From contig OZ024748.1 in assembly GCA_964016885.1 (NCBI GenBank), positions 38,626,001 to 38,690,000 on the forward strand: a stretch of 64,000 nucleotides of DNA. The letters are read 5' to 3'. The DNA comes from Eledone cirrhosa. Taxonomy: Eukaryota. Under the pieces are notes generated by a model. The model made no database searches. It was given only the letters and a program-made list of their open reading frames with translations, and was not told where the DNA came from. The position numbers were made by a program, and so were the translations under genes. Below, in pieces: positions 2,900 to 58,989 of this stretch. How positions within the stretch are numbered: the first letter of the stretch is position 1; each line of letters begins with the position of its first letter.

Positions 2900-3336
2900 T
2901 ATACACACTCGTACAAAGAAACGTAATGTGAAAGTGTAAATAAAAAACTTTGGCGTGTGTGTCAGAGAGAGAGAGAGAGGGAGGGGCGGAGAGAGGGAGA
3001 GAAATAAGAGAATGATAGAACGTTAGCTATATGGATGGATGGATGGATATATAGAGAGGTAGACAGACAGATAGATAGATATAGAGATAGATATATATGT
3101 TTCTTTATTAGCCACAGGGGCACAAAAGAAGGGGACAAATACAAAGGGGGAAGTTTACATACAATAAAAACGTGTAAAATGTTATCACAAATGCAATTTA
3201 AAAAATTAGTCGATTTTCTCCAATAGGGGGAGATAGTTCATATGGGTAACACATACCCCCGAAAAAATGTGAAACCCTCATCTCCAGGAGTACGAAGAGT
3301 TTGTACTCCTTTCTTCTCCTCCTCCTTTTCCTCAAC

Positions 3337-6300
3337 CTACAGGCTGATATAGAGAGAAGACCCATTCACTCGAGCCATTCTCGCCACTTTCACCCACCTT
3401 TCATAAAACTTGCTGGGGTAGAGCACCTCTCTCTCCATCCTGATTCTTCTTCCAAAGTGGTATTTGAAAAAAAGAATCAGTTGTTGGCCGGAGAGAAAGG
3501 TGTCTAACCTCAGCCCTTTCAACCTTGTCCACCATACAACCTCCTTCGCCATAGCTATCACACAGAGGAAAACCGCCTCTCCTTCGTTTTTGAAGGAGGG
3601 TGGCGGTTTGATCATGACAATGGACTCGGTGGTCAACCGGATTGGTCCCACCCGCAACAATAATCGTTCTACATAGCCCCACAGGTCAGTGACGCCCGGT
3701 TTCTTCGTCTCGCACGTACCTCGGACAGATCTTTTTTGCAGGGTCCCTGCCGGGGCGTCCATGTCTGTAGAGCTTGTCTCGAACTGGTAGAGCTCCTCGG
3801 TAGCACTGCCAGGCCAGGGACTTTTGGAAGTTGTCCATCGGTCCCGGGCGGAAGGTCCTACCGAACAAACTGGCCAGTTCATCTTCCTCTACGCCTAGAG
3901 TTTCACCGAGCGCGTCGTCGTACTTGCTGCGGATCAACCCTCTATAGAATGACGAAGTGGAGTCTCCACTGATCGCCGGGTCCGCCTGCCAGAGAGCTGT
4001 GAGCGCCTGAGCACATTCGATGTGCCAGTCGCCCATTTTCCTCGGTTTTGCTTGACCCAGGACTGCAGCTCGGTCAGCGAGACGAGTCGTGGGAAGGCTC
4101 GCCTCACGAACGGGGCCCACACCGGTTGTCCGGTGAGGAATACGTAGAGATGCCTCACCCTGATCGCGTGTTTGCGCATCGTCAACCACGGCATCCCCAG
4201 CCCTCCGTTAGAAGGGTGTTGGCAGCAGATGGATCTTCTCACCAAAGGAGCCCGCCTCTTCCAAAGGAATCGGAAGAGCGCGCGCTCCATTTTGGCGAGC
4301 GTTTGGGCTGGACAAGGCACGACGGTCAAGCGGTAGTAGATGGCGGACGCTATAATAGTGTTCGCCACCTCCGCTCGACCTTTCAAGGATAGTTTGCACT
4401 CGTCCCACTTCTGGGTGAGTGCAAACACCTTGGCCGTCACTTCGTTCCAGTTCTTCTCCCCCTGGAGGTCCGGACCAAACCAGACCCCGAGCATCTTTAC
4501 CGGTCCTTCCGTCCAGCGTCCGACGACGCCATCGAAAGGCATCGGTTTGCCTCTCCACGATCCGAGTTGCAAACCGATGGACTTGTCCCGGTTCAGCTTC
4601 GCTCCTGTGAAACTTTCGTATTCCTTCAGTAAGGTGCCGACTTCCTCGATCTGCGAGGCGCTCGACACCATTACTGTCACGTCGTAGGCCGACGTCGCTT
4701 TCCGCAGTCCCGGTTCCAGAGGGATGCCCTGCAATAGCTCCAGCTTCCGCAGTAGTGGCTCGAGAGTCAGTACGTAAGAAGGGAGGAGAGAAGGCATCCC
4801 TGTCGAATGGATCGCGGAATATGGAACGGATCCGAGAGGTAGCCGTTCACCTTGACCCTTGAGCAGATGTTGCTGTTGTGCATTGCAGCAATCCAGCCCC
4901 TGAAAACGGGTCCGAGGCCTGCCGCCTCGAGCACCGCATCCAGGTAACGATGGTTAACCCTATCGAAAGCCTTAGACTGATCCAAGTTGATCAGGGCCCC
5001 ACCGAAGCCGGGTTTACACCCTACCCTCTCTATGATGTATCGCATGAGGTGGAGGTTGTCGTGTATGGACCTGGTCGGGATTGCGCATGTCTGCGCTTCT
5101 CCCACCAGGTTCTCGACGACAGCGCCAGCCTCTTTGCCAACACCTTGGCCAAAATCTGTAACTCTGTGTTTAGCAGAGTTATGGGCCGGAAGATGCCTAT
5201 GTCATGCCCCTTATTCTCGTCCTTCCTGATTAGTGTGACCACGCCTCCGGTTACAGAACTGGGAATTCTCCCGTTCTGTTGCCAGTTGCAGTAGACCGCT
5301 TCCAGGAGACCGGAGAATAAGTCCGGCATTGCTACGTAAAATTCGTAGGGTAGACCGTCGAGACCTGGAGATTTGCGTTGGCCGCATTGGTTCAGCGCGT
5401 CCCCTATCTCAGTGGCTGAAATCGGCTTTTCGCAGAACTTTGCCTCGCTGTCCGAGAGTCGCAGTAGGCCGTCGAGGTATGGACCGAAATCCATAGCCTC
5501 TCCCGGCGCGCCGCCCCTCCCGAACAGTTGAGCAAAGTGCCGCTGAAAAGCCGCACACATCTGCTTCGGCTCACGTATCACGCGTCCGTTTTGGTCCTTC
5601 AAAGACCGAATCGTGGACTTGTTGCCACTTTTTGCCTCCGTCACTCGGGCCCAGCTAATAGCTTTGGCTACCTCGTTTCCCAGAGCACGTATTTTGCTTC
5701 TGACAACGCAGCGCTCGTGCTTTGCGTCGAAGAACTGGTCCAAGGCCGTTCTCGTTGCTAGCACGCTGGCTACGTTGCCACTTCTAATTGCCTCTTCTAC
5801 TTTATCTACCAGTTCCTTCTCGGTTCTATTTCTATCTAACGCTAATTCTTTACTAAAAACTATCGAGTCTAATCTAACTGCCCTCTTGAGAGAGTACCAC
5901 CATCTGTTGTTGACAATGGCCCCTGTCGAATGCTGTTTAACTAAAGTGCTAATCCGTCTACTGTAGGCTTCCAGTAGCCGGGTCCTTGTCTATGGGTTTT
6001 ATCAAGGTTGGCCATGCAGGTCACTAGTTTGTGATCTGAATAGGCAACCATGAACATTTGTGGACAGCTTAACATGTCCCTATCCTTATTTATATCTAGA
6101 ACCCTATCTAGGTACGATCTAGATGTTCCGCTACGATTACTCCACGTCCACAGTGGCGCAGTCGGAAAATCTAGTCGATATCTATCGGCCAGGTCAAATC
6201 GGTCGATTAACTGTTTGAGGCTGTTACACCCCCCCCTTTATCGAGACATGCTCCCACATAGTCCCAACGTGCATCTAGGATTCCATTCCAGTCCCCCACT

Positions 6301-12635: not shown

Positions 12636-12638
<3 letters not shown>

Positions 12639-12786
12639 GAATTGTGGTAAGGAACCAGATGGACCATGACACACCAGAGTACTCAATACTTGGGGGAGTA
12701 GAGTGGGAAATAGTAAAAGTATGACCCCGACGGCAGAGTTCAGCCGTTTCGACGGCTATTTCTCGACTGAGTCATACTTTTTCCTA
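12636..12786 (-). mobile_element. Half-hammerhead element, family K, in (TA)n
   Basis: Same ~140-bp body as 21672, 38529, 39820 and 51295, with a short inverted terminal piece. Confidence 0.8.
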
Positions 12787-14312: not shown

Positions 14313-14375
14313 TACACACATTATATATATATATTTATATAATCTTTCACTCGCTATCGGTCTGTCTATCTATCT

Positions 14376-16205
<1,830 letters not shown>

Positions 16206-21596: not shown

Positions 21597-21671
<75 letters not shown>

Positions 21672-21675
<4 letters not shown>

Positions 21676-21865
21676 AACCAGTAAGACCCCGACAGCTGAG
21701 CTCAAGCCGTTTCGACGGCTAATTCTGGACTCCAGAATTAGCCGTCGAAACGGCTTGAGCTCAGCTGTCGGGGTCTTACTGGTTCCTATTACCCAGTCTA
21801 CTACCTCAAGTATTGAGTACTTTGGTGCGTTATGGTCCACCTGGTTCCTTACCACAATTCCTTCG

Positions 21866-21868
<3 letters not shown>
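21672..21868 (+). mobile_element. Half-hammerhead element, family K, with a ~58-bp perfect hairpin
   Basis: Palindrome centred on CTGGACTCCAG (~21730). (TA)n on both sides. Confidence 0.85.
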
Positions 21869-21909
<41 letters not shown>

Positions 21910-32865: not shown

Positions 32866-32870
32866 ATGTA

Positions 32871-33005
32871 GTTAGTGACCGACGGCTGAGCTCACGTCGA
32901 AACGGTGTGAACTCAGCCGTCGGTCACTATATACTACTTCGAGTAGTCTTACTAACATGGTCTTACAAATCTAAATTGGTAACTCCCAATCTCTCGCTGT
33001 CTCTC
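32871..33005 (+). mobile_element. Half-hammerhead fold-back element related to family K
   Basis: TAGTGACCGACGGCTGAG..gtcGAAACGG..CTCAGCCGTCGGTCACTA hairpin after (TA)n. Confidence 0.65.
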
Positions 33006-38497: not shown

Positions 38498-38528
<31 letters not shown>

Positions 38529-38531
<3 letters not shown>

Positions 38532-38737
38532 AACGAGTAGGACCCCGACGGCTGAGCTCAAGTCGTTTCGACGGCTAATTCTGGACTAAAAAATTTTAGT
38601 CCAGAATTAGCCATCGAAACGGCTTGAGCTCAGCCGTCGGGGTGCTACTCGTTCCTATTACCCACTCTACTACCCTAAGTATTGAGTACTTTGGTGCGTT
38701 ATGGTCCATCTGGTTCCTTACCACATCTCCTTCGTTA
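38529..38737 (+). mobile_element. Half-hammerhead element, family K, with hairpin
   Basis: Palindrome centred on GGACTAAAAAATTTTAGTCC. Confidence 0.85.
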
Positions 38738-38745
38738 TATATATA

Positions 38746-39819
<1,074 letters not shown>

Positions 39820-39821
<2 letters not shown>

Positions 39822-40020
39822 CAAAGGAATTGTGGTAAGGAACCAAATGGACCATAACGCACCAGAGTACTCAATACTTAGGGTAGTAGAGTGGGAAATA
39901 GGAAAAAGTATGACCCCGACGGCAGAGCTCAAGCCGTTAAGCCGTTTCGACGGCTATTTCTGGACTGAAATAGCCGTCGAAACGGCTTGAGCTCTGCCGT
40001 TGGGGTCATACTTTTTCCTA
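39820..40020 (-). mobile_element. Half-hammerhead element, family K, with hairpin
   Basis: Same body. Inverted piece at 39968-40020. Confidence 0.85.
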
Positions 40021-40898
40021 TATATATATATATAGGCGTTGATCTTTGCCACCCGTCCCGTTATCTATCTATCTATCTGTATACAGGTGTATGTGTGTGA
40101 GTACAGATGTGTGTGACTACAGATGTGTGTGACTACATATGTGTGTGAGTACAGATGTGTGTGAGTACAGATGTATGTTTGCACATGGAAACATCACTTA
40201 AACAAGTGAATATATAGTCACACATACGTATAGACACAAACACACATATGCTTGTAATATACTTGTGGAAGGAGAGGTGAGTGTATGTAGTCGTGTGTGG
40301 ATATAGATACACACACACACATATATATATATACATGTATATATATATATATATATATACATATACATACATATATATATACATACATATGTACATACAT
40401 ATATATATATACATATACATATACATATATATATACACATGCATAGATATATATATACATACATATACATATATACATGCATACATATATATATATATAC
40501 ATACATATATATATACATATACATATATATATACATGCATAGATATATATATACATACATATATATGTATATACAAACGCATACACACACACACACACAT
40601 ACATATATAAATATATACATACATATATATATACATATACATATATATATACATGCATAGATATATATACATACATATATATGTATATACAAACGCATAC
40701 ACACACACACACACATACATATATATATATACATGTACATATATATATACATATACATACATATATATATACATACATATCTACATAGATATGTATATAT
40801 ATATATATATATATACACAGATGCATAAATAGATATATACATATACATATATACATGCATACATATATATATATATATATACATACATATATACATAT

Positions 40899-45586: not shown

Positions 45587-46047
45587 GTTCTATTTAAATT
45601 GTTGGGATACAACAAGCAAATATTTTTATAACTGATATAAAGCACTCAACAAATTATTGAAGTAAAAATACGATATATTAACAAATGGAAACTGTATTTA
45701 TAAAACCATATTTATTTCATTATACATATTTCAAGGACACCAAGTCAAATTATGGTGCGCTTTCATCAGATAAAATATAATATAGATCAGTTTTATAAAT
45801 AAATATTGACATGCCCTTAAAGAATGCGACCATTTCTGTTGGAAGCTCCCGGAAGCTCCTGACTATCCGGGAGCTTCCAACAGAAATGGTCGCATTCTTT
45901 AAGGGTATGTGAATATTTATTTATAAAACTGATCTATATTATATTTTATCTGATGAAAGCGCACCATAATTTGACTTGGTGTCCTTGAAATATGTATAAT
46001 GAAATAAATATGCTTTTATAAATATAGTTTCCATTTGTTAATATATC

Positions 46048-46050
<3 letters not shown>
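45585..46050. mobile_element. Fold-back of family C (~185-bp arms) with two mirrored HHRs (45714-45776 minus, 45943-46005 plus)
   Basis: Centre GCTCCCGGA agctcctgacta TCCGGGAGC. HHR ATTTTAT-CTGATGA-aagcgCACCA..TGGTGtcctt-GAAA-tatgta-TA-ATGAAAT. Confidence 0.88.
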
Positions 46051-46102
<52 letters not shown>

Positions 46103-46609: not shown

Positions 46610-49600
46610 CGGTGTGGTTAAGAAAAACAGCATCGAGCTAATGAAACTGAGGAGCAGAGGACAACTAGGTTATCCACATTAGTTGCCTACAACGCAAGAC
46701 TCAATACTTCACATTCATCACATCGATACTCAGTAGAAAACCTTGCGGCCCGTATGACAAAAAAATGCACAAACCACTGCTGCTTCACGATCAAGTGAGT
46801 CTACAGAGGAACGTACTATTCGGTTAGCACTGAATGCTGCCGCGACTGCTGCCTCAAGAGCTGCGGAGACACCTGAACAGCGTGCAACTCGAAGAAAACA
46901 CAATGCTGCTGCGACTGCTGCCTCAAGAGCTGCGGAGACACCTGAACAGCGTGCAACTCGAAGAAAACACAATGCTGCTGCGACTGCTGTCTCGAGAGCT
47001 GCGGAGACACCTGAACAACGCATACGTCGCCAGGCTTCCGATTGTGCTTATCGTACTGCTGCGATAGCTTCTGAAACATTGGTTGAAAGAACTACTCGAC
47101 TACAAACGATTGCGCATCATAAAGCTGTTCTGCTTGGTGCATCCAAGCCTACGAGGAATAGATGGGTGTTTAAAGCCTTTCATTATGACCCCTCTGAAAA
47201 TTATGCTGACCACAAAGATGTTGCCATTGGTCGTATGTCCAAAATCTGTCTACACTGTAAAGCAATAACTTGGCCGAGAGAGCCTGTTGGTCTATGCTGC
47301 TCAAATGGAAAGGTTTGTCTGCCCAACAGCCCTGAAACTCCACAGCCCTTAAAGTCCCTTCTGCTTGGTGAGCATCCATATTCTCAAGATTTCATGAACC
47401 GAATACGGGCATACAATTCACCATTTCAAATGACAAGGTGTGGTCATAAGCCCATATCTTATGGAAACTTTAATCCCACTTTTACCATTCAGGGACAGAC
47501 GTACCATTTAATCGGTTCTCTTCATCATAATTTTCTTCAGATATACTTCATGGGACTAGAGAGAGAGAAAATTGCACGTAGGGCTGCTGTTGCTCCAGGC
47601 ACATACACGGCTGTTCTTGGACCTCTTCAGGAAATGCTTCATGAGCACAACCGGTATATCAACCAATTTAAAACGGCTATTTAACGACGCCGGGCAGACA
47701 ATGGCAACTTTAAGGTTGTTATTAGAAGTGACAGGACTCCTGTTGGGGAACATCACCGCTGTTACAACCGACCCGAAACAGAGGAGGTTGCTGTTTTGCT
47801 TTGCAATCCCAATGTAACTCTTTCCAAAAGAGATATCACCCTAGAGTGGCAGATCTCCCGTGTTAAGAGGATCAATGAATTAAATCCAGCCTATGACGGC
47901 CTTCAATACCCCTTACTCTTTCCCTGTGGAGAGGATGGATACAGTCCTGATATCCCTACCATTGTACCTACAACACACCAAACAGCACAGCCTCCAAAAA
48001 TGGTTTCCCAGATGAACTTCTACAGTTACAGATTGATGGTTAGAACGAACAACTTCAACAGTCTTCGCAGAGCAGGGGCTCTTCTGAATCAGTATTGTGT
48101 GGATATGTATGCTAAAGTAGGATTTACGCCCCTTTCAGTCATGAGTACCTATACTTTTTATTAAAATCTATGCATAACCATCCTATTCCTTACTCTCACA
48201 GATTGACTCAGAACGACTTCTTTGGATTTGCCATAATCAAAAGCAGCTCCATGCAGATGAATATGCCAAGGTTCGAGACGAGGTTAATATCAATGCCATT
48301 GTAGTTGCTTCTGAGGTTGGTATTCGAATCATCCTGCCATCGTCCTATACAGGCGGCCCGAGGTATATGCATGAAAAGATGCAGGACGCTCTCACATACG
48401 TTCGTCTTTACAACCGCCCTGACCTTTTCATAACGTTCACATGACACACCCAAATGGTAGGACATCCAAATGAGCCTACCTCCAGGCCAACGACCAGCAG
48501 ATCGCCATGACATCACTGCTCGCGTTTTTCATGTTAAAGTTCGTAAAATGATTGATTTGTTTAAATTTTGTGAAATTTTCGGGCCGATCAAATGTTTTAT
48601 GTATACAGTTGAATGGCAAAAATGTGGTCTACCTCACGCCCACATCATACTCTGGCTACAAAGCAAACTTCGACCGTCTGACGTGGACACAGTCATAAGT
48701 GCAGAATTTTCAAATCCCAATGAAGACACCCAGTTGTACGAAATCATTCGAAAAAATATGGTTCATGGGCCATGTCGGCACTTTAATTCTACGTCTTCAT
48801 GCATGGCAAACGGAAAATGCACTAATAAATATCCACGAAAGCTTTTGTCTGAGACAATCACAGGTAACGACGGTTACCCAATATATCGCAGAAGAGCTCC
48901 TGGACATGGCGGTTCCACAGCAACAATCAAACATGGATCTAACCGAGAATTTACAATTGACAATCAATGGGTTGTTCCACATAACAAGATGCTATGCAAG
49001 ACATTTAATGCGCATATTAACGTTGAATATTGTAACTCAGTTAAATCTATACGTTACGTTTGCAAATACGTCAATAAGGGATTCGATAGAGCCGTCTTTC
49101 AAGTGGCACAAACAGGAACAGCAGCTGCACCAACAGATGAGGTAGAACTCTTTCAAATAGGGCGTTATATCTCAACTAATGAGGCAGTTTGGAGAACGTT
49201 TGATTTCCCTATACACGAGCGATTCCCCCCTGTTCAACATCTCAGTGTTCCCTTAGAGGACAAGCAGAGAGTTTACTTCACTGAAGAAAACTTACGTCAA
49301 CAGGTTCTTGCCCCACGTAGGACAACTTTAACTGCATTTTTCGAACTCTGTACGGTTGACTCCTACGCAAAAACTCTTCTGTATGTTGATGTTCCTCATT
49401 ATTATTCTTGGAACCACTCAACTTGCTTATGGCAAAGAAGAAAACAGGGCCGACATATCGAATCAGATCCTGCCATTTTTGAAAGTGACACAATAGGACG
49501 CGTCTATACTGTTCATCCTTCGAATGCTTCCATCTTCGACTGCTGCTTCACGTTGTACGTGGAGCAACATCCTTTGCAGCCCTTTGCACAGTGAACGGTC

Positions 49601-50907
49601 AATTATGCAAGACATTCAAGGACGCATGCTTTAAACGGGGGCTTATCGATACGGACAACCATTATGAGAGTACACTTGAGGAAGCGTCTCTCCGTCGATC
49701 TCCATCAAAGCTTCGGCATCTATTCGCCATTATGCTGGTTTTCTGCAACTTTGTTAACTCGCCTTTGTTGTGGAATATATGGCTTCAAACCCATCAAGCT
49801 ACTGAAAATTCCACCACTGCTTTTACCCCCTCTATGTATAACGCTGGTCTAATTACCTTGGAGGACTTAGTTGTGGCAATTGGAGGCCAACGTTTGGAGG
49901 CATACTGCCTCCCTTCTCCGGATAGAAACCAAGAGCAAACTTGTAATCGACTCTTCCTTAGAGAAACCAGCTACGACAAAACCAAGCTTCGACAATACGT
50001 AGCTTTCAACGAGCCTCTCCTTAATCCAGATCAAGAATCTGCATACAAATCCGTTCTAAACAAGGTATACAGCAATACTGGCGGGATTATCTTCATAGAT
50101 GCACCTGGAGGGACCGGTAAAACATTTCTGCTTAATCTTATTGTTGCTAAGGTAAGGCAGAATGACGACAATGCACATGCTGTTGCCTCTTCCGGTATAG
50201 CTGCGACTCTTTCAGAAGGTGGCCGCACAGCACACTCGACCTTCAAGCTGCCGCTGAATGTCGTCCATCAAGAGAATCCCATCTGCAATATCTCACATAG
50301 TTCTGACGAAGCTGCTCTGTTGAAAAGCTGTAAACTAATTGTGTAGGATGAGGCAACCTTGTCCCCTAAAGGCCAATCTCTTAAAGTTGTTGGTCTGGTT
50401 CTTCGAACCCATTGCATTTCACATGGTCAGTTTTACGTTGGCTGTTCTCGAGTTGGTAATCCTGACAACCTATTTATTTATGCTCCTGATGGGAAAACCA
50501 AAAATGTTGTGTATAAATCTGCTCTTCAATAATCCAAAAGACAATGAGTGCTCCCACCCAACATCCATCTCTTTTTATAACGATTTGCTCATCCATCAGT
50601 TCCCCCCTGTTATATATATATATGTATTGTTATTCCAACCTTTGCACATAATAGTGTCTATTATTCACTTCACTTCTCTATTTCATGATACGCTTTTACT
50701 GTTGTCAACAAAATTTATACCTAGACTGGATTTCTGTTGTTACATGGGATAACGGATGACACCGAGCTCACATATTAATTATTTCGCTGGAATAGTGCCT
50801 AAGGTTTTCATGTTTACACAAAGTATGTATTCAAATTTACTTTGTTTAGTTTAATGAGCTACATCGAAAGTTACTTGAACCATCCAAAGGACGGGTAGTT
50901 TAGCTAG
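46610..50907 (+). mobile_element. Helitron, Rep/Hel pseudogene with an internally deleted helicase
   Basis: PDLFITFT, VEWQKCGLPHAH, YVCKYVNKG, DAPGGTGKTF, GGRTAHSTFKLP, HGQFYVGCSRVG. 3' end ACGGGTAGTTTAG-CTAG|T. 5' end not resolved. Confidence 0.92.
48117..48201 (+). other. 85-bp GT-AG intron in Helitron Rep
   Basis: GCTAAA|GTAGGA...CTCACAG|ATTGAC. Removal restores DMYAK-IDSERL in frame. Confidence 0.8.
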
Positions 50908-51212: not shown

Positions 51213-51294
51213 CTATATATATAATGTAATTCCTGACGTCTCAGTCCCCACCCCTATATATATAAGCATATCTATCATACATATATATATATAT

Positions 51295-51477
51295 AGGAAC
51301 AAGTATGACCCCGACGGCAGAGCTCAAGCCGTTTCGACGGCTATTTCTGGACGTCGAAACGGCTTGAGCTCTGCCGTCGGGGTCATACTTGTTCCTATTA
51401 CCCACTCTACTACCCTAAGTATTGAGTACTTTGGTGCGTTATGGTCCATCTGGTTCCTTACCACAATTCCTACGTTA
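51295..51477 (+). mobile_element. Half-hammerhead element, family K, with hairpin
   Basis: Centre TTCTGGAC|GTCGAAAC. Confidence 0.85.
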
Positions 51478-57462: not shown

Positions 57463-57497
<35 letters not shown>

Positions 57498-57712
57498 GTT
57501 AAAAGTGTACATCTACATATGTATACTGAAATACTAGTATGCATATAAATACACACATGTATACATATGTACATGTACTGAGTTTTTCACTGGACACTTT
57601 ACTGTGAGTGTCCAGCTAGTCTGTATGTAACCAAACAGACAAACCGGGTTTTAGAGTCATACAGGTTTTCAAGGAAACACATTTCCTCTATTCTCCAGAG
57701 AGCCAGACAGGA

Positions 57713-57755
57713 ATATTGGACTAGTTTCGATGTTATTACATCTCATCAGCAATAT
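57713..57755 (-). ncRNA. Minimal type I hammerhead ribozyme, family A
   Basis: ATATTG-CTGATGA-GATGT aata ACATC-GAAA-CTAG-TC^-CAATAT. All core nucleotides and both stems are perfect. Confidence 0.93.
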
Positions 57756-58183
57756 ATACCCATCTTCCGGCTTCTCTAGAGAATCGTAAAAGCACATATC
57801 GTTATATGCTTTTTCTATGAAAATTAGTAGTGGGCAGACCAATTTGCATAGAACGTGAGTCATTGTACGCACCGGTTCAGCGGAAACGATCAAAACAAAT
57901 AACGAAACGAAATTAAATTTCGTTTCGCTTCTAACTCACTTTTGTATGACTGACGCTTAAACAATTAAGTTAAAAGTGTACATCTACATATGTATACTGA
58001 AATACTAGTATGCATATAAATACACACATGTATACATATGTACATGTACTGAGTTTTTCACTGGACACTTTACTGTGAGTGTCCAGCTAGTCTGTATGTA
58101 ACCAAACAGACAAACCGGGTTTTAGAGTCATACAGGTTTTCAAGGAAACACATTTCCTCTATTCTCCAGAGAGCCAGACAGGA

Positions 58184-58226
58184 ATATTGGACTAGTTTCG
58201 ATGTTATTACATCTCATCAGCAATAT
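58184..58226 (-). ncRNA. Minimal type I hammerhead ribozyme, family A
   Basis: Identical to 57713-57755. Confidence 0.93.
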
Positions 58227-58659
58227 ATACCCATCTTCTGGCTCTCTGGAGAATAGAGGAAATGTGTTTCCTTGAAAACCTGTATGACTCTAAAACCCGG
58301 TTTGTCTGTTTGGTTACATACAGACTAGCTGGACACTCACAGCAAAGTGTCCAGTGAAAAACTCAGTACATGTACATATGTATACATGTGTGTATTTATA
58401 TGCATACTAGTATTTCAGTATACATATGTAGATGTACACTTTTAACTTAATTGTTTAAGCGTCAGTCATACAAAAGTGAGTTAGAAGCGAAACGAAATTT
58501 AATTTCGTTTCTTTATTTGTTTTTATCGTTTCCGCTGAACCGGTGCGTACAATGACTCACGTTCTATGCAAATTGGTCTGCCCACTACTAATTTTCATAG
58601 AAAAAGCATATAACGATATGTGCTTTTACGATTCTCTAGAGAAGCCGGAAGATGGGTAT

Positions 58660-58702
58660 ATATTACTGATGAGATGTAATAACATCGAAACTAGTCCAAT
58701 AT
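58660..58702 (+). ncRNA. Minimal type I hammerhead ribozyme, family A (one stem I mismatch)
   Basis: ATATTA-CTGATGA-GATGT aata ACATC-GAAA-CTAG-TC-CAATAT. Confidence 0.85.
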
Positions 58703-58989
58703 TCCTGTCTGGCTCTCTGGAGAATAGAGGAAATGTGTTTCCTTGAAAACCTGTATGACTCTAAAACCCGGTTTGTCTGTTTGGTTACATACAGACTAGC
58801 TGGACACTCACAGTAAAATGTCCAGTGAAAAACTCAGTACATGTACATATGTATACATGTGTGTATTTATATGCATACTAGTATTTCAGTATACATATGT
58901 AGATGTACACTTTTAACTTAATTGTTTAAGCGTCAGTCATACAAAAGTGAGTTAGAAGCGAAACGAAATTTAATTTCGTTTCGTTATTT

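What the first reader, a model, noticed from the sequence alone, without database searches (positions are those of the whole stretch)
21672..21868. Family K: five copies that keep only the 3' half of a hammerhead, each closed into a hairpin
Seen at 12636, 21672, 38529, 39820 and 51295. The sense strand starts ..AGTCCAGAA(T/A)TAGCCGTC-GAAA-CGGCT tgagctc AGCCG-TC-GGGG, i.e. a stem II 3' arm, GAAA, a full 6-bp stem III with a palindromic loop, and a GUC site. No copy has CUGANGA; the reverse complement of the element sits in its place. In every copy one arm stops at or within a few nt of CTGGAC(T), far too precise for random truncation. Inference: the parent has a long perfect stem II that self-primes, or the half-ribozyme is a substrate for trans cleavage.
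Basis: partly seen in the sequence, partly recalled or inferred. Interest (0 to 1): 0.72.

Follow-up and report, generated by a model that had tools for sequence, protein, structure and literature searches.

The report
Penelope copies stop inside their ribozyme
These small hairpins are cut-short copies of a known kind of animal jumping gene, and most stop at one spot inside its predicted self-cutting RNA motif, likely because the element's capped messenger RNA starts there, which would give a direct test of how these poorly understood elements copy themselves.

Summary
The five copies are real. They are 5'-truncated, head-to-head insertions of an autonomous Penelope-like retrotransposon (RT + GIY-YIG, Hydra-clade motifs; parent L169) in (TA)n. 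The parent has a complete hammerhead-type motif with the known U3-A8 core (UUGANAA, 4,671 arms), not CUGANGA, and a ~55-nt imperfect stem II. The stop is real but is a cliff, not one base: of 130 arms, 104 end within 16 nt upstream of the stem II 3' arm, 2 in the next 28 nt, and 24 keep the whole core. The mode is the A of T[T/C]AGT. An older subfamily with a different stem II fold stops at the same motif. A non-parental G precedes that A 5,420 times against 890 for A; three bases away G is the minority (22:78). Best reading (0.62): the pseudo-LTR promoter starts capped RNA inside loop II, RT primes 60 and 140 nt downstream from both target strands and runs off the cap, and the two cDNAs are joined. 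No RNA data were available. Fold-back on stem II and trans-cleavage are poorly supported. The scan noted the same stop and reading before on other DNA of this genome (e1-9525717).

The parts
21605..21673 (.). (TA)n target, left flank
   Evidence: sequence
21672..21731 (-). short arm (60 nt): from the A of T[T/C]AGT (inferred RNA +1) to the first copy end; 60 of 60 identical to parent L169 3049-3108
21731..21868 (+). long arm (138 nt) with tail; 136 of 138 identical to parent L169 3051-3188; shares 1 nt with the short arm at the junction
21739..21774 (+). 3' half of the hammerhead: stem II 3' arm, GAAA (21747-21750), stem III (21750-21768), predicted cut site after 21769, stem I 3' arm
21789..21868 (+). 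80-nt tail = sequence that follows the pseudo-LTR in the tandem parent and leads into its ORF
   Evidence: L169 3109-3188; in-frame ATG at 3280
21867..21898 (.). (TA)n target, right flank
   Evidence: sequence
12636..12785 (-). copy: tailed arm reaching position 10, partner arm only ~20 nt
38528..38737 (+). copy: both arms reach 13, centre is an A-run followed by a T-run
39819..40021 (-). copy: arms reach 10 and 4; 7-nt internal duplication in the tailed arm
51294..51477 (+). copy: short arm reaches 9, tailed arm starts inside the stem II 3' arm

Best explanation
The hairpins are 5'-truncated inverted insertions of an autonomous Penelope-like retrotransposon, and they likely stop where its capped RNA begins, at the A of T[T/C]AGT inside loop II of the predicted hammerhead. 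Shown: parent with RT and GIY-YIG ORF, full U3-A8 core, tail continuing into the ORF, two fixed 3' ends 80 nt apart, (TA)n targets, the cliff of 5' ends, the G excess. Inferred: the pseudo-LTR promoter starts transcription at that A; the enzyme cuts (TA)n and primes from both target strands at the two internal sites 60 and 140 nt downstream; both cDNAs run off the cap, often adding a C opposite the cap or several A; their 3' ends are joined with little or no microhomology, giving a head-to-head hairpin with the tail on one side. Long copies with the whole ribozyme would come from priming at the second pseudo-LTR of read-through RNA. A start inside loop II would also leave the RNA's 5' end without the half needed to cut itself in cis.
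For: Parent: L169 and L165; focal copy nearly identical to L169. Cliff: 104 of 106 truncated arms end at 0-16, highest stop rate (0.29) at 10; longer arm ends at 9 or 10 in 32 of the first 50 hairpins, beyond 10 in 6 (by eye) and in 25 of 53 scored by script. Motif rather than fold: in subfamily K2 the lower stem has compensatory changes, the loop differs and TTAGT is predicted unpaired, yet 21 of the first 50 hairpins have an 18-19-nt centre, i.e. both arms at 9-10 (by eye) and 10 of 13 K2 loci scored have the longer arm at 9-11. Cap-like base: G 5,420 vs A 890 before position 10, G 22 vs A 78 in the first 100 of 1,607 before position 7; in hairpins with both arms complete and a spacer, 14 G vs 2 A in 100 arms, on both arms in 5 of 9 loci (by eye). 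A-runs longer than the parent's three T fit additions at a template end. Literature: internal priming at two sites from both target strands (PMC11167929, parts 1-2 of 4 read), start site in the pLTR of Penelope and Chlamys-3 (PMC2377424 passages; PMC8557442 section 10), extra G from the cap at full-length L1 junctions (PMC11702581 passage).
Against: No RNA was seen: start site and cap are inferred from DNA only. Ends are spread: only 33 of 106 truncated arms end at 9-10, 16 end at 4 and 21 at 11-16. The G can often be read as the partner arm's own base: 6 of 7 G cases among 19 arms ending at 10 (by eye), and C was commoner there (10). The frequent 10+4 junction has neither G nor microhomology and is unexplained. 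99 of the 130 arms come from the first 13 Mb of one contig and were picked by an exact 13-mer; hairpin patterns cap the centre at 30 nt. The initiator likeness is recalled, short, and the same pyrimidine-A step is also a favoured RNA cut site. K2 parents are three decayed copies, none with an intact core. In other Penelope families of this window the short copies keep the whole ribozyme, so this is not a general rule.
Confidence: 0.62

Rival explanations
1. Same parent and same two-cDNA joining, but the 5' boundary is made by a nuclease cut at the pyrimidine-A step, or by a protein or tertiary-contact roadblock to RT, in a longer RNA.
For: Explains the cliff and A-additions equally well; ends are spread over 15 nt; in family K the site lies in a predicted upper stem; G cases are often partner-derived.
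Against: Does not predict a G excess specific to position 10; the site is paired in K and unpaired in K2 yet the boundary is the same.
Confidence: 0.22
2. One reading: the cDNA folds back on the long stem II and primes on itself, making the second arm.
For: Stem II is ~55 nt with an inner hairpin; self-priming was proposed for palindromic Penelope junctions (PMC3846280, passages); 12 of 53 junctions show 1-2 nt overlap.
Against: Natural apical loop kept in 0 of 50; 18 of 53 junctions are blunt, with no room for a loop; the tail-less arm is as often the longer one (13 longer, 8 shorter, 6 equal); it does not explain the fixed end of the second arm 80 nt short of the tail.
Confidence: 0.07
3. 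The hairpins are a non-autonomous family that amplifies from a few hairpin master copies, so the shared end is inherited.
For: Most of the 30 best matches to the focal copy share its exact junction.
Against: That set was selected by a query holding the junction base; in unselected lists the junction differs from copy to copy and the focal junction is 0 of 50; the boundary recurs in several subfamilies.
Confidence: 0.05
4. One reading: the half ribozyme is kept as a substrate for cleavage in trans by the missing 5' half.
For: The two halves of L169 co-fold into the hammerhead shape in silico (-29.3 against -18.3 kcal/mol for the parts).
Against: In the hairpin copies the half is locked by a perfect antisense arm; many copies cut into the half itself; nothing shows selection on it.
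Confidence: 0.04

Closest known systems
Hydra clade of C-terminal EN+ Penelope-like elements (Craig et al. 2021, PMC8557442, section 11 read)
   Same: Single RT + GIY-YIG ORF with DKT, CxCX5C linker, CxxC and CxH, RWR for RWK, no GxKF/Y; (TA)n target; hammerhead in the pLTR; inverted 5'-truncated copy with one-sided tail.
   Different: 80-nt tail (30-40 nt is the usual figure), unit about 3.1 kb or more, U3-A8 core with ~55-nt stem II and 5-6-bp stem III; about four in five arms stop at one boundary inside the ribozyme, not described in the passages read.
PLE hammerheads incl. the U3-A8 variant of Schistosoma Cercyon (Cervera and de la Pena 2014, PMC4209133, parts 1-2 of 4 read)
   Same: Type I topology, U3-A8 covariation, G10.1-C11.1, larger helix II, palindromic loop III, mostly solo truncated copies, pairs on opposite strands.
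   Different: Here helix III is full length, helix II far longer with an inner hairpin, and most copies carry only the 3' half, invisible to such descriptors.
Poseidon_Ac in vitro mechanism (Frangieh et al. 2024, PMC11167929)
   Same: Two internal RT start sites that define the tail, both target strands extended, AT-rich target, ribozyme cut not needed.
   Different: That work does not address where cDNAs end or how inverted copies are joined; different clade.
Drosophila virilis Penelope internal promoter (PMC2377424, passages)
   Same: Start site inside the pLTR, TATA-less.
   Different: No intron seen here; start site not mapped here; downstream promoter element not tested.

Membership tests
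EN+ Penelope-like element | One ORF with RT and C-terminal GIY-YIG | tested here: met
   L169 ORF with YRDD and VIY...YIG; Pfam gave no hit at E<=0.1, so this rests on motifs and layout
EN+ Penelope-like element | Partial tandem pLTR, inverted 5'-truncated copy, one-sided tail | tested here: met
   L169, L165 and others of 20 loci
Hydra clade | DKT, CxCX5C, CxxC, CxH, no GxKF/Y, RWK | tested here: met
   RWK appears as RWR
Hydra clade | (TA)n insertion | tested here: met
Hydra clade | Placement in an RT tree with reference elements | not tested
   no reference proteins were brought in
Type I hammerhead | Core YUGANRA (C3-G8 or U3-A8), GAAA, NUH | tested here: met
   UUGANAA with all four bases at N7, GAAA, GUC in parents; absent 5' half in the five window copies
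Type I hammerhead | Three stems with covariation | tested here: met
   MFE of L169 is the three-stem fold; L165 and L166 prefer an alternative hairpin; 88.6% cells paired, 3 pairs of stem II with two-sided change in 10 related rows; no Rfam hammerhead hit on the parents
Type I hammerhead | Self-cleavage | not testable with these tools
   needs an in vitro assay
Non-LTR retrozyme | Tandem non-coding units each with a full hammerhead | tested here: not met
   copies are solo inverted fragments of a coding element

The most novel reading that the evidence does not exclude
This lineage starts its capped mRNA inside its own ribozyme, so the transcript's head carries only half a hammerhead, and because RT primes just downstream on that head, tens of thousands of genomic hairpins are run-off products that record the cap on both arms. 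That would show that both arms of Penelope inverted repeats are first-strand cDNAs of sense, capped RNA, and that start-site position switches the ribozyme off.
Probability: 0.5. Interest if true: 0.62.

Novelty: new variant of a known kind. Interest (0 to 1): 0.45.

Why it matters
How Penelope-like elements make their inverted repeats, which strand is the template and what the ribozyme is for are open questions (antisense self-priming was proposed in PMC3846280; the ribozyme was dispensable in PMC11167929). A family with 67,416 countable arms, a sharp boundary and near-intact parents gives a predicted start site to map and a simple in vitro read-out. It also means that hammerhead surveys that demand CUGANGA and a short stem II miss both the parent and most copies.

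Tried and rejected
CUGANGA parent searches: 37 matches upstream of the body and 63 for the stem I form (control 99), none a parent (30 loci of each viewed). Rfam: no hammerhead hit at the five copies among the 150 rows shown of 298 or on the parents. Pfam: nothing. HDV-like ribozyme at the 5' end: no conserved P1 partner by eye; dropped. Sequencing runs: no RNA holder listed; contigs of four to five coded runs laid cover the region, with summed depth far higher downstream of the boundary, but contigs cannot show starts or copy number, so this is not used as evidence. First extension tallies were inflated by matches across subfamilies and were replaced by subfamily-matched ones. Metagenome relatives L284-L286 (36-37% identity) have a canonical C3-G8 core and short stem II, so they do not test the boundary. 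Paper searches listed nothing on a start site or copy boundary inside a Penelope hammerhead; the family's core 11-mer was not found in the one supplementary file of PMC8557442 held as text (line breaks may hide matches, figures and other files not seen).

Full report
Observation. The five copies exist as described. Each sits in (TA)n and has two opposite arms, one ending 19 nt after the GUC site and one carrying a further 80-nt tail. The family is abundant in the 3.0-Gb genome: 67,416 exact matches to the 13-nt anchor (control 3) and 13,928 hairpins with both anchors exact and a centre of at most 30 nt (control 0).

Finding the parent. A search for CUGANGA within 33 nt upstream gave 37 matches; in the 30 viewed the motif arose at junctions or came from other elements. 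Random 10-kb stretches showed two copies with shared upstream sequence (L093, L118), in which the core reads UUGAGAA or a decayed form. A search for UUGANAA 30-60 nt upstream gave 4,671 matches, control 0, with all four bases at N7. U3-A8 is a reported covariation in Penelope hammerheads (PMC4209133). Twenty loci chosen from that list include long inverted pairs with ORFs. L169 holds pLTR, tail, an unbroken 786-codon frame (first in-frame ATG at codon 68), 3' region and a second pLTR. The motifs match the Hydra clade as described; no tree was built, and the clade name came to me from an earlier scan note before I checked it. The focal copy matches L169 at 60 of 60 and 136 of 138 bases.

The ribozyme. 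L169 folds as a three-stem hammerhead in its minimum-energy structure, though not better than shuffles (z -0.56); L167 is similar (z -2.24); L165 and L166 favour a competing small hairpin. On ten related rows 88.6% of cells pair and three stem II pairs change on both sides (the rows are related, and the structure was drawn from them). Rfam does not detect it. Activity is untested.

The boundary. With subfamily-matched parents I scored 130 arms: 99 from the first 100 listed anchor matches and their loci, 31 from 904 kb of unselected sequence including the window. 24 keep the whole core, 104 end 0-16 nt upstream of the anchor, 2 end at 17-44. The stop rate peaks at 10, the A of T[T/C]AGT. Counting only the longer arm: 9 or 10 in 25 of 53 (six rows scored 0 because they are of another subfamily or cut into the anchor) and in 32 of the first 50 hairpins (by eye). 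Ends at 11-13 are partly an artefact: centres made of an A-run then a T-run (16 of 50, by eye) often exceed the parent's three T, so added A mimic read-through.

What sets it. (a) An older subfamily, K2, has a longer perfect lower stem II, a different loop, and the motif predicted unpaired (three decayed parents). Its hairpins (1,015 matches, a few of them mutated K copies) stop at the same A or the next base. The boundary follows sequence, not predicted fold. (b) The base 5' of that A is T or C in all 61 distinct parents. Of the non-parental bases G outnumbers A 5,420 to 890, whereas before position 7, where the parent base is also T, it is 22 to 78 (Fisher p about 1e-45, though copies and junction contexts are not independent). 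An extra G marks capped full-length L1 ends (PMC11702581). Against this: in my own sample 6 of 7 such G could come from the partner arm. (c) Fold-back on stem II should keep its loop; 0 of 50 do.

Mechanism. In vitro a Penelope-like enzyme extends both target strands and starts at two internal RNA sites that define the tail (PMC11167929). Penelope and Chlamys-3 start transcription in the pLTR. If this family starts at the A in loop II, the priming sites lie only 60 and 140 nt from the cap, so most events yield two short cDNAs that are joined head to head; priming at the far pLTR of a read-through RNA yields the roughly one arm in five that keeps the ribozyme. The start site, the cap and the joining step are inferred. 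That T[T/C]AGT resembles an initiator is recalled knowledge, not a call result.

Verdict. Ordinary Penelope layout and a precedented core variant, plus one real and less ordinary regularity with a testable cause. An earlier scan note on other DNA of this genome reached the same start-site reading; I reached mine before opening it (note) and it is not independent evidence. Papers: PMC11167929 parts 1-2 of 4; PMC4209133 parts 1-2 of 4; PMC8557442 passages, sections 10-11, one supplementary file searched; PMC2377424, PMC3846280, PMC11702581, PMC2881922, PMC6431247 passages; bioRxiv 10.64898/2026.07.22.740005 part 1 of 5 (its supplements are closed and may list related elements).

Noticed in passing
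window 32870-33005: Related but distinct (TA)n hairpin element with the same GAAA / stem III / GUC half and a different tail; also lacks the 5' half.
   Followed up: no
window 57487-58928: Nested long inverted repeats carrying complete minimal hammerheads (57743, 58214, 58666); weak Rfam HH9 match at 58167-58239.
   Followed up: no
window 45663-46056; L257, L259, L280: Another Penelope family whose short inverted copies stop well upstream of the ribozyme and keep it whole.
   Followed up: partly
L093 6250-8500: A second coding Penelope-like family with a U3-A8 core but a short stem II.
   Followed up: partly
L215, L220, L225, L199, L230, L188; window 39820: Recurrent blunt junction with arms of 10 and 4, in K and in K2; the tail-less arm is usually the one reaching 10. 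Unexplained.
   Followed up: partly
L032, L039, L046, L048, L040, L055: Short K arms joined directly to pieces of other Penelope-family ends, consistent with template jumps or joining between different elements.
   Followed up: no
window 48461-50344 and 46758-47682: Open frames that look like Helitron Rep/helicase pieces (by eye).
   Followed up: no
window 14343-15888 and 3936-5989: Frames that look like non-LTR retrotransposon RT pieces (by eye).
   Followed up: no
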